From positions 1-23,535 of IMG/VR virus record IMGVR_UViG_2859799533_000003: a DNA stretch of 23,535 nucleotides; one strand, given 5' to 3'. The stretch's first letter is position 1; each line of letters begins with the position of its first letter. Below are positions 12,408-12,698 of the stretch, in pieces. Position numbers and translations under genes: made by a program. The notes under the pieces were generated by a model. The model did not search any database, was not told the DNA's origin, and was given only the letters and a program-made list of their open reading frames with translations. This DNA is from a virus (Duplodnaviria > Heunggongvirae > Uroviricota > Caudoviricetes).

Positions 12408-12655
12408 AAATGAGAATAACCAGTTCCCTGAAGGCGACGTAGCCCGGTACAAGAGTAACCCACGTTAGCGCTTGGCGACGGCGGAACAAAGCTGATTCGC
12501 GACGTAAGAAAGTGGCAGGCTCATATGACGGACCTCTGTAATGCGGTATCCAACCCGCGAATATCAGCGTGATTCACCGTCGGATTTACTGCTACGTCGC
12601 CCTCAGGGAATTAAACCTAAAAAGAAAATCGTCAAAATTAGAGATTCCGGTTTGA
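12408..12655 (+). ncRNA. candidate structured non-coding RNA (possible IS110-family bridge/seek RNA)
   Basis: No ORF; 18-bp long-range inverted repeat 12426-12443 / 12591-12608 (17/18 complementary) enclosing about 150 nt. Strand and exact ends unknown. Confidence 0.3.
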
Positions 12656-12698
12656 CACGGAAAGTCATATCAGCGTCAACGGAGCACCGTATTGACGC

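What the first reader, a model, noticed from the sequence alone, without database searches (positions are those of the whole stretch)
12408..12669. Candidate bridge/seek RNA in the 3' non-coding end of the IS110-family element
About 250 bp between the recombinase stop (12407) and the element's terminal repeat have no ORF support but a strong structural signal: ccctgaaggcgacgtagc (12426-12443) pairs with gctacgtcgccctcaggg (12591-12608), 17/18 complementary, enclosing about 150 nt. IS110/IS1111-family recombinases are reported to use an element-encoded structured guide RNA in a non-coding end that base-pairs with both target and donor DNA. This is the best candidate for such an RNA here and it would predict the insertion specificity seen at the IS66 terminus.
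Basis: partly seen in the sequence, partly recalled or inferred. Interest (0 to 1): 0.65.

Follow-up and report, generated by a model that had tools for sequence, protein, structure and literature searches.

The report
Bridge/seek guide RNA of ISSso6
The structured 190-nt stretch after the transposase gene is almost certainly the guide ("bridge" or "seek") RNA that tells this IS110-family insertion sequence (ISSso6) where to insert; this kind of RNA has been known since 2024, and a bridge RNA in this element's right end is already listed in a published table.

Summary
A 20-22 bp stem (12422-12443 / 12591-12612, one A.C mismatch) encloses 147 nt in the 3' non-coding end of an intact ISSso6 (IS110 family, IS1111 group; 11155-12673), which sits in the tip of an IS66-family inverted repeat.

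Evidence that it is a guide RNA:
- Elements with 48-81% identical transposases keep the same fold. 34 of 47 base pairs show compensatory changes, and 95% of cells are paired against 33-41% when the partners are slid.
- Two hypervariable loop segments track each element's own insertion site (0 of 20,000 permutations reach the observed match).
- In this window, ACGTAAG (12502-12508) equals the left flank plus core, 7 of 7. TAGCGCT (12466-12472) is the reverse complement of core plus right flank, 5 of 7.
- ATATCAG (12561-12567) equals the element's right tip plus core, and this segment changes with the tip in other clades.
- G.U pairs outnumber A.C pairs about 4:1 once one conserved A.C mismatch is set aside. 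This points to the transposase strand.

Durrant et al. 2024 (Supplementary Table 5) already list ISSso6 as "bridge RNA end: RE, group IS1111", so this is a known kind and a catalogued case. I did not find the per-element anatomy in print. The right-donor guide is unresolved, and expression is untested.

The parts
11155..12673 (+). ISSso6 insertion sequence, 1519 bp. The boundary can slide by 2 nt because the core AG occurs at both 11153-11154 and 12672-12673.
   Evidence: RefSeq annotation of near-identical copies as 'IS110-like element ISSso6'. Uninterrupted IS66 end GTAAGCGTCAACGG at 100% identity. Direct reading.
11159..11172 (.). Left sub-terminal inverted repeat TATGACTTTCCGTG
   Evidence: 14/14 complementary to 12656-12669. 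The same geometry recurs in relatives.
11280..12407 (+). Transposase/recombinase gene, 375 aa
   Evidence: Pfam PF01548 and PF02371. NCBIfam 'IS110 family RNA-guided transposase', 273.9 bits. 375/375 identical to the ISfinder ISSso6 protein printed in Siddiquee et al..
12422..12612 (+). Bridge/seek RNA gene: the structured unit closed by stem P1 (12422-12443 with 12591-12612)
   Evidence: Covariance model hit 12421-12613, 203 bits.
12453..12522 (+). Target-binding module. Stem P3 is 12453-56/12519-22 and 12460-63/12512-15. It closes an internal loop, which is capped by hairpin P2 (12475-82/12491-12500).
   Evidence: P3 and P2 were predicted by RNAalifold on an unfitted MAFFT alignment. Compensatory changes in 5 of 8 P3 pairs and 7 of 8 P2 pairs.
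12466..12472 (+). Right-target guide TAGCGCT. Its reverse complement AGCGCTA compares with core+right flank AGCGTCA (12672-12678): 5/7.
   Evidence: Hypervariable column block. In relatives it matches their own right flank, mean 3.94 of 5 non-core bases against 1.45 for other elements' flanks; 0 of 20,000 permutations reach this.
12502..12508 (+). Left-target guide ACGTAAG, identical to left flank + core (11148-11154): 7/7
   Evidence: Direct repeat D7. Family-wide mean 3.15 of 5 against 1.73; 0 of 20,000 permutations reach this.
12527..12581 (+). Donor-binding module. Stem P4 is 12527-31/12577-81 (the weakest helix). It closes an internal loop, which is capped by hairpin P5 (12543-46/12555-58).
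   Evidence: P5 was predicted by RNAalifold and has GCGG/CCGC to GAGG/CCUC and GUGG/CCAC swaps. I added P4 by hand; it is 90.5% paired with one compensatory pair.
12561..12568 (+). Left-donor guide ATATCAG, identical to right tip + core (12667-12673), plus C12568, which equals the first base of the right target flank
   Evidence: Direct repeat D11. It tracks the tip in other clades: CATCAGAG against tip CATGAGAG, and GATGAGAG against CATGAGAG in L078. The extra base matches the flank in 27/34 pairs; 2 of 50,000 permutations reach this.
12532..12542 (+). 5' strand of the donor loop; position of the right-donor guide by homology. Pairing to the left end is weak in this clade.
   Evidence: In clades C and D this strand is the reverse complement of core + left end, for example L053 TCTGTCT against AGACAGA. 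In ISSso6 only CUGU can pair with GCAG. An alternative is UACUGCU at 12587-12593. See the 'unexplained' note.
12652..12657 (+). -35 hexamer TTGACA, facing outward at the right end. In a circular junction it lies 17 bp from CAGTAT (11156-11161).
   Evidence: Direct reading. TTGACA is conserved at this place in relatives. No promoter-like or terminator-like site near the RNA in the linear element.
12656..12669 (.). Right sub-terminal inverted repeat CACGGAAAGTCATA
11148..11154 (.). Left target half + core. GTAAG (11150-11154) is the tip of the IS66-family inverted repeat.
12672..12680 (.). Core AG + right target half CGTCAAC, which continues the IS66 inverted repeat

Best explanation
Positions 12422-12612 (+ strand) encode the guide RNA of ISSso6, a bridge RNA / long seekRNA of the IS1111 type. 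A long closing stem (P1) presents two internal loops.

The first loop reads the target. Its 5' strand (TAGCGCT) pairs with the top strand of core + right flank. Its 3' strand (ACGTAAG) pairs with the bottom strand of left flank + core. Together they select the tip of IS66-family inverted repeats (..GTA-AG-CGTCAAC..).

The second loop reads the element's own joined ends. ATATCAG pairs with the bottom strand of right tip + core.

The DEDD/serine recombinase bound to this RNA would synapse the circular element with the target and exchange strands at the shared A(G).

Shown here: the fold, its conservation and covariation, the strand bias, the guide-flank covariation, and the element limits. Inferred from the IS621, ISEc11 and ISEc21 experiments: that the RNA is made (probably from a promoter assembled at the circle junction and cut out of the transposase transcript), that it binds the recombinase, and that it is required.
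For: Identity of the element:
- It is an intact ISSso6 with the family's two recombinase domains.

Fold and conservation:
- The long stem recurs at the same distance after the stop codon in homologues, with entirely different sequence.
- RNAalifold on an unfitted alignment predicts P1, P2, P3 and P5 on its own.
- On 66 distinct RNAs, 95.4% of cells are paired, against 78.5% when shuffled and 33-41% when slid. 34 of 47 pairs have compensatory changes.
- The model hits one site per element in 76 of 81 sources, always on the + strand downstream of tnp.
- G.U 147 against A.C 68; 33 of the A.C cells fall at one conserved mismatch.

Guides:
- Guide blocks match each element's own flanks: 0 of 20,000 permutations for each side. 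The opposite-sense controls sit at background.
- In the window the left-target guide matches 7/7, the right-target guide 5/7 and the left-donor guide 7/7.
- Four independent E. coli copies all lie in IS66 ends in the same orientation.
- The order 'top-strand match 5' of bottom-strand match' is the one reported for IS1111-type seekRNAs (PMC11187229).

Literature:
- Durrant et al. list ISSso6 as RE / IS1111.
Against: - There are no expression data, and no promoter or terminator of its own.
- No library covariance model matched.
- The right-donor guide cannot be assigned convincingly in this clade.
- P4 has little covariation.
- The right-target guide matches the actual site at only 5 of 7 positions.
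- Alignment A4 was fitted to my structure, which inflates its pair counts.
- Elements are phylogenetically related, so the permutation counts are not true probabilities.
- The single-sequence MFE fold differs from the comparative fold in the interior (63 bp distance). The comparative fold is within 1 kcal/mol of the MFE once completed: -77.6 against -78.4.
Confidence: 0.85

Rival explanations
1. Only the first module (about 12453-12522) is the functional guide, a short seekRNA that reads the target. The ends are recognised by the protein through the 14-bp sub-terminal repeats and through the target-derived flanks. On this reading the ATATCAG loop is not a donor guide.
For: For ISEc11 an 82-nt seekRNA with only the two target matches supported transposition better than the 154-nt form (42% against 15%), and target sequence flanking the donor was required (PMC11187229). 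No convincing right-donor guide in ISSso6. A->G changes in the left-donor guide of L010/L011/L013/L016, and in the tip of L049, are not compensated.
Against: The ATATCAG segment is identical to the right tip + core. It switches to CATCAGAG/GATGAGAG in clades whose tip is CATGAGAG. In clades C and D the opposite strand of the loop is the reverse complement of core + left end. The second module is as conserved as the first and lies inside the same closing stem.
Confidence: 0.1
2. The stem-loop is a transcript-end element for the transposase mRNA, such as a terminator, a 3' stabiliser or a translational regulator, and has no guide function.
For: It begins 15 nt after the stop codon and is very stable.
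Against: No T-run follows the stem, and no terminator-like site is called there on the + strand. A terminator does not explain 147 nt of conserved interior with two loops. It also does not explain why the variable segments track each element's insertion site.
Confidence: 0.02
3. The feature acts as DNA (a cruciform or protein-binding sub-terminal repeat) or as an antisense RNA from the minus strand.
For: The minus strand folds about as well (z = -4.1). The one mismatch in P1 would be a G.U on the minus strand.
Against: Across the family, G.U pairs on the + strand outnumber A.C by 146 to 35 outside that single conserved position. DNA cruciforms and a minus-strand RNA would not tolerate these. 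In IS1111-group elements studied experimentally, the RNA is transcribed in the transposase direction (PMC11187229).
Confidence: 0.03

Closest known systems
IS1111-group bridge RNAs predicted by Durrant et al. 2024 (Nature 630:984; ISCARN28, ISAzs32, ISPa11; Supplementary Table 5 lists ISSso6 itself as 'RE, IS1111')
   Same: Encoded in the long right end, downstream of a DEDD recombinase gene. Structured, with loop nucleotides complementary to both the target and the donor around a shared core. Sub-terminal inverted repeats are present.
   Different: [quoted passage not shown] Here both the target and donor segments lie in simple internal loops inside one long closing stem. No structure or guides are given for ISSso6 in the paper's text or in the supplementary passages that mention it.
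seekRNAs of ISEc11, ISPa11 and ISKpn4 (Siddiquee et al. 2024, Nat Commun 15:5235)
   Same: 3' NCR location. The top-strand match lies 5' of the bottom-strand match, and the two matches overlap in the target. Relatives are naturally re-targeted by swapping only the guide blocks. The -35 lies in the right end and the -10 in the left end of the circle junction.
   Different: The ISSso6 transposase is 375 aa, against 330-350 aa for classical IS1111 members, and its row of the paper's identity matrix reads about 17-26%. No experimental data exist for ISSso6. The unit delimited here is 191 nt, against long forms of 151-172 nt.
IS621 bridge RNA (IS110 group; Durrant 2024; Hiraizumi 2024, Nature 630:994)
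   Same: The logic is the same: the left guide pairs with the bottom strand of the left half-site, the right guide pairs with the top strand of the right half-site, and both cover the core. There are two loops for two DNAs.
   Different: IS621's RNA lies in the left end, upstream of the gene. The guide order within each loop is reversed. The core is CT rather than A(G). IS621's handshake bases follow the right guides and read the top strand; here the only handshake-like base follows the left-donor guide.
[quoted passage not shown]
   Same: An IS1111-group element whose specific target is the terminal inverted repeat of another mobile element, in one orientation.
   Different: The target here is the IS66-family inverted-repeat tip (GTAAG|CGTCAAC), and the transposase clade is different.

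Membership tests
IS110/IS1111-family bridge RNA (seekRNA) | Encoded in the longer non-coding end of an element whose only gene is a DEDD (RuvC-like) + Tnp-domain recombinase | tested here: met
   PF01548 + PF02371, NCBIfam NF033542. 3' non-coding end of 266 nt against a 5' end of 125 nt.
IS110/IS1111-family bridge RNA (seekRNA) | Conserved secondary structure supported by covariation among orthologues | tested here: met
   34/47 pairs compensatory; 95.4% paired against 33-41% when slid. Independent RNAalifold prediction of P1, P2, P3 and P5. P4 is weak.
IS110/IS1111-family bridge RNA (seekRNA) | Two loop segments complementary to opposite strands of the target, overlapping at the core, that change with the target | tested here: met
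   Window: 7/7 and 5/7. Family: 0 of 20,000 permutations reach the observed match on either side, and 28 distinct guide pairs.
IS110/IS1111-family bridge RNA (seekRNA) | Loop segments complementary to both element ends (donor) | tested here: inconclusive
   Left-donor guide 7/7, and it tracks the tip between clades. The right-donor guide is clear in clades C and D but not in the ISSso6 clade.
IS110/IS1111-family bridge RNA (seekRNA) | The RNA is transcribed, co-purifies with the recombinase and is required for circle formation and insertion | not testable with these tools
   No expression or biochemical data are available here.
IS110/IS1111-family bridge RNA (seekRNA) | Hit to a published covariance model | not testable with these tools
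   Rfam 15 gave nothing at E<=10. The Durrant models are not in the tool set, but their Supplementary Table 5 records a detection in the RE of ISSso6.
IS1111 group (as opposed to IS110 group) | Sub-terminal inverted repeats of 7-17 bp with short terminal extensions | tested here: met
   14/14 repeat. Read from ATG/CAT, 7 nt (AGGCAGT) lie outside it on the left and 3 nt (ATC) on the right.
IS1111 group (as opposed to IS110 group) | Long NCR downstream of tnp, and the top-strand match 5' of the bottom-strand match | tested here: met
   the rule is stated in PMC11187229.
IS1111 group (as opposed to IS110 group) | Transposase of 330-350 aa, related over its full length to that of IS1111 | tested here: not met
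   375 aa. About 17-26% identity in its row of Siddiquee's matrix. Durrant et al. nevertheless file it under IS1111. It is best described as a deep-branching IS1111-like clade.
IS110/IS1111 circle-junction promoter | -35 in the right end and -10 in the left end, at promoter spacing only after circularisation | tested here: met
   TTGACA (12652-57), then 17 bp, then CAGTAT (11156-61) in the deduced junction. This is a sequence match only; activity was not tested.

The most novel reading that the evidence does not exclude
This deep-branching clade (375-aa recombinase, 3' RNA) may be an architectural intermediate between IS110-type and classical IS1111-type bridge RNAs, and it may also differ mechanistically. 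Three observations point that way. Both target and donor guides lie in simple internal loops inside one closing stem. The base after the left-donor guide reads the first base of the right target flank. The second core base is always donor-derived at the left junction and target-derived at the right junction. Together these would imply that the shared core is effectively one base, or that the order or side of strand exchange differs from IS621.
Probability: 0.2. Interest if true: 0.5.

Novelty: already known. Interest (0 to 1): 0.3.

Why it matters
The finding confirms that a reader working from raw sequence can spot a bridge/seek RNA. It also gives ISSso6, an element found in Shigella and E. 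coli, a concrete guide map.

That map explains why the four copies examined sit in the tips of IS66-family elements in one orientation. It predicts the preferred site as ACGTA-AG-CGCTA.

The 28 naturally re-targeted relatives form a ready-made set of guide/target pairs for anyone who wants to engineer this clade. None of this changes the picture of the field.

Tried and rejected
- **Rfam.** Searches at gathering score and at E<=10 found nothing in or near the element. I treat this as absence from the library, not as evidence against an RNA.
- **Single-sequence MFE folds**. They recover P1 but pair the ATATCAG guide into a long interior helix. I rejected that helix in favour of the comparative fold because it is not conserved.
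- **Extra RNAalifold helices.** The 3-bp helix CC.G/CGG and the small hairpin after the left-donor guide are invariant in the alignment, so they are untestable. I did not adopt them.
- **Handshake bases after the right-target guide**, by analogy with IS621. The two bases (UG here; UC, AU, AC in relatives) are not complementary to the last two bases of the right tip (alignment, compared by hand).
- **The three bases after the left-target guide** against the first base of the left end: no correlation.
- **The variable block between P3 and P4** (around 12523-12527) against the left end, the right end or the flanks: no match found.
- **Three registers for a right-donor guide** (12535-12539, 12538-12544, 12587-12593): none is compelling.
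- **Sub-terminal repeat detection by script**. It mis-called about a third of the distant loci, so I excluded calls scoring below 8, or with arms that do not begin ATG and end CAT, and one remaining spurious call (L034) from the guide statistics.
- **Internal promoter or terminator for the RNA:** none found.

Full report
**What is in the window**

The region holds an intact copy of ISSso6. RefSeq annotates near-identical copies in E. coli as 'IS110-like element ISSso6 family transposase'. The ORF 11280-12407 encodes 375 aa with Pfam DEDD_Tnp_IS110 and Transposase_20, and it matches NCBIfam 'IS110 family RNA-guided transposase'. It is 375/375 identical to the ISfinder ISSso6 protein printed in the supplement of Siddiquee et al. 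2024.

A perfect 14-bp sub-terminal inverted repeat lies at 11159-11172 and 12656-12669. To the left the flank ends in GTAAG (11150-11154). To the right it continues CGTCAACGGAGCACCG, followed by an IS66-family tnpC on the minus strand. The other inverted repeat of that IS66 element reads GTAAGCGTAAACTG. Uninterrupted copies of the interrupted end read GTAAGCGTCAACGG at 100% identity in other genomes.

The insert is therefore 11155-12673, 1519 bp. AG is present at both junctions (11153-54 and 12672-73), so the boundary can slide by two bases. The whole 3' non-coding stretch belongs to ISSso6 and not to IS66.

**The observation**

It encloses 147 nt. The stretch folds far better than shuffles (z = -4.3), but so does the other strand (z = -4.1).

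**Conservation**

A protein search found thousands of relatives. A genome scan then fetched 80 loci whose recombinases are 48-81% identical.

- A simple script found a long-range stem at the same place after the stop codon in most loci. In distant loci the arm sequences are completely different, for example CTCAGCACAGTGGCAGAGGCCGCG / CGCGGCCTCTGCCACTGTGCTGAG in L072.
- RNAalifold, run on a plain MAFFT alignment of 37 RNAs from the closest clade, predicted the closing stem P1, a two-part stem P3, a hairpin P2 and a hairpin P5. I added one helix, P4 (GACGG/CCGUC), by analogy.
- A covariance model built from that alignment hit 76 of 81 sources. The hits are on the + strand downstream of the recombinase gene, one per element except for a tandem pair in L064. 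The window scored 203 bits at 12421-12613.
- On the 66 distinct RNAs, 95.4% of cells form standard pairs, against 78.5% in shuffles and 33-41% when partners are slid. 34 of 47 pairs show changes on both sides.
- That alignment is fitted to the model, so the figures lean towards the structure. P1-P3 and P5 rest on unfitted evidence as well. P4 is the weakest helix.
- On the + strand there are 147 G.U cells against 68 A.C cells. 33 of the A.C cells come from one conserved mismatch in P1. This favours an RNA made in the transposase direction.

**Guides**

The alignments show a conserved scaffold interrupted by short hypervariable blocks. Two of them face each other across the internal loop between P3 and P2.

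- The 3' block is identical to the seven bases that precede each element on its left, that is the left flank plus AG.
- The 5' block is the reverse complement of the seven bases that follow the right tip, that is the core plus the right flank.
- Over 34 distinct element/site combinations (28 distinct guide pairs), the five non-core bases match their own site at a mean of 3.15 (left) and 3.94 (right). Against other elements' sites the means are 1.73 and 1.45. No shuffle out of 20,000 reached the observed value on either side, and the wrong-sense controls are at background.
- Examples: L009 AACAGGA against AACAGGA, L031 AGCAGAC against AGCAGAC, L072 AACGCCC against AACGCCC, and L011 GCGGAAG against GCGGAAG.
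- In the window, ACGTAAG (12502-12508) equals 11148-11154, 7/7. TAGCGCT (12466-12472) reverse-complements to AGCGCTA, against AGCGTCA at 12672-12678, 5/7.
- Three other E. coli copies, in unrelated surroundings, also lie in IS66-family tips in the same orientation. Their left flanks are CGTAAG or GGTAAG, and their right flanks AGCGTCA, GGCGTCA (one copy has a G at the first core base) or AGCGTTA.

This is the pairing logic described for IS621: the left guide pairs with the bottom strand and the right guide with the top strand (PMC11208158). The 5'-to-3' order is the one Siddiquee et al. report for IS1111-type seekRNAs.

**Donor side**

A second internal loop, between P4 and P5, carries ATATCAG (12561-12567). 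This is identical to the right tip plus core (12667-12673). In clades whose tip is CATGAGAG the same position reads CATCAGAG or GATGAGAG.

In clades C and D the opposite strand of this loop is the reverse complement of core plus left end, for example TCTGTCT against AGACAGA in L053. In the ISSso6 clade that strand (12532-12542) pairs poorly with the left end and varies without a change in the left end. An alternative, UACUGCU at 12587-12593, needs a one-base bulge and overlaps the top of P1.

I therefore regard the left-donor guide as supported and the right-donor guide as unresolved. ISEc11 works with a short RNA that has only the target matches. A target-only model therefore remains a live rival for how the ends are recognised.

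**Expression (inferred)**

The scan finds no promoter-like or terminator-like site near the RNA in the linear element. The right end carries an outward-facing TTGACA (12652-12657), and this hexamer is conserved in relatives. In the deduced circle junction it lies 17 bp from CAGTAT in the left end.

That is the junction-promoter arrangement reported for this family (PMC11187229; PMC12288879). The RNA would then be cut out of the 3' part of the transposase transcript. Nothing here tests that.

**Comparison with what is known**

Bridge RNAs (Durrant et al. 2024) and seekRNAs (Siddiquee et al. 2024) are established for IS110-family elements. Supplementary Table 5 of Durrant et al. lists 'ISSso6 - Detected Bridge RNA End: RE - Group: IS1111'. 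The existence of this RNA is therefore already catalogued. I found no published structure or guide assignment for it in the searchable library.

It differs from classical IS1111 members in recombinase length (375 aa against 330-350 aa), and its row of Siddiquee's identity matrix reads about 17-26%. Durrant et al. note that many IS1111 orthologues place the donor-binding bases in a multi-loop, whereas here both guide sets lie in simple internal loops.

**Things that may deserve a look**

- The base after the left-donor guide (C12568) equals the first base of the right target flank in 27 of 34 pairs, and in 24 of 25 pairs within the ATATCAG clade. 2 of 50,000 permutations reach this.
- The second core base at the right junction follows the right-target guide (AA in 12 cases, AG in 15), while the left junction is AG in 33 of 34.
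- These points hint that only the A is truly shared, or that the strand-exchange details differ from IS621. ISPpu9, another family member, also recombines at an AG.

**Verdict**

The feature is an ordinary, well-preserved member of a known and recently much-studied class, already flagged in a published table. The guide map given here appears to be new detail rather than a new phenomenon.

Noticed in passing
window 12568, and loci: The base immediately after the left-donor guide equals the first base of the right target flank in 27/34 element/site pairs, and in 24/25 pairs in the ATATCAG clade. 2 of 50,000 permutations reach this. It is a handshake-like position on the opposite guide and strand from the one described for IS621.
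   Followed up: partly
window 11153-11154 and 12672-12673; loci: The left junction reads AG in 33 of 34 elements. The second base at the right junction is A or G, as predicted by each element's right-target guide (12 AA, 15 AG). The shared core may therefore be a single A, or mismatched cores may always be resolved the same way.
   Followed up: partly
window 12432/12602: An A.C mismatch in the closing stem is conserved in 33 distinct RNAs of the closest clade and is repaired to A-U in L005, L032 and L043. It could be a recognition or processing feature.
   Followed up: no
window 12509-12511 and about 12523-12527: Two further hypervariable blocks in the RNA (after the left-target guide, and between P3 and P4) vary among relatives, and I found no partner for them in the flanks, the ends or the RNA.
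   Followed up: partly
L037:2678-2817: A Paraburkholderia copy whose RNA lacks the whole target-binding module (P3, loop, P2) but keeps the closing stem and the donor module. It is probably a dead or trans-dependent element.
   Followed up: no
L064:2851-3043 and 3229-3421: A Desulfosarcina MAG locus carries two identical copies of the RNA 378 nt apart, downstream of one recombinase gene. In this MAG (L059, L063, L064) the RNA starts about 260 nt after the stop codon, with an extra hairpin in between.
   Followed up: no
window 10259-15180: Nested insertions. An IS3-family element (orfB 10259-11077, minus strand) is interrupted by an IS66-family element (tip at 11150-11154; tnpC/B/A at 12699-15088, minus strand; other inverted repeat near 15173). 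That IS66 element is in turn interrupted at its tip by ISSso6. One E. coli record (VL46, NZ_JBLWKH010000002.1) matches the whole queried arrangement (window 11100-12750) at 99.7%, in three aligned pieces.
   Followed up: partly
window 7235-7764 and 15781-15897: Rfam hits outside the finding: three tRNAs (7235-7481), the sRNA STnc100 (7560-7764, 142 bits) and an ALIL frameshift pseudoknot of an IS3-family element (15781-15897, 120 bits).
   Followed up: no
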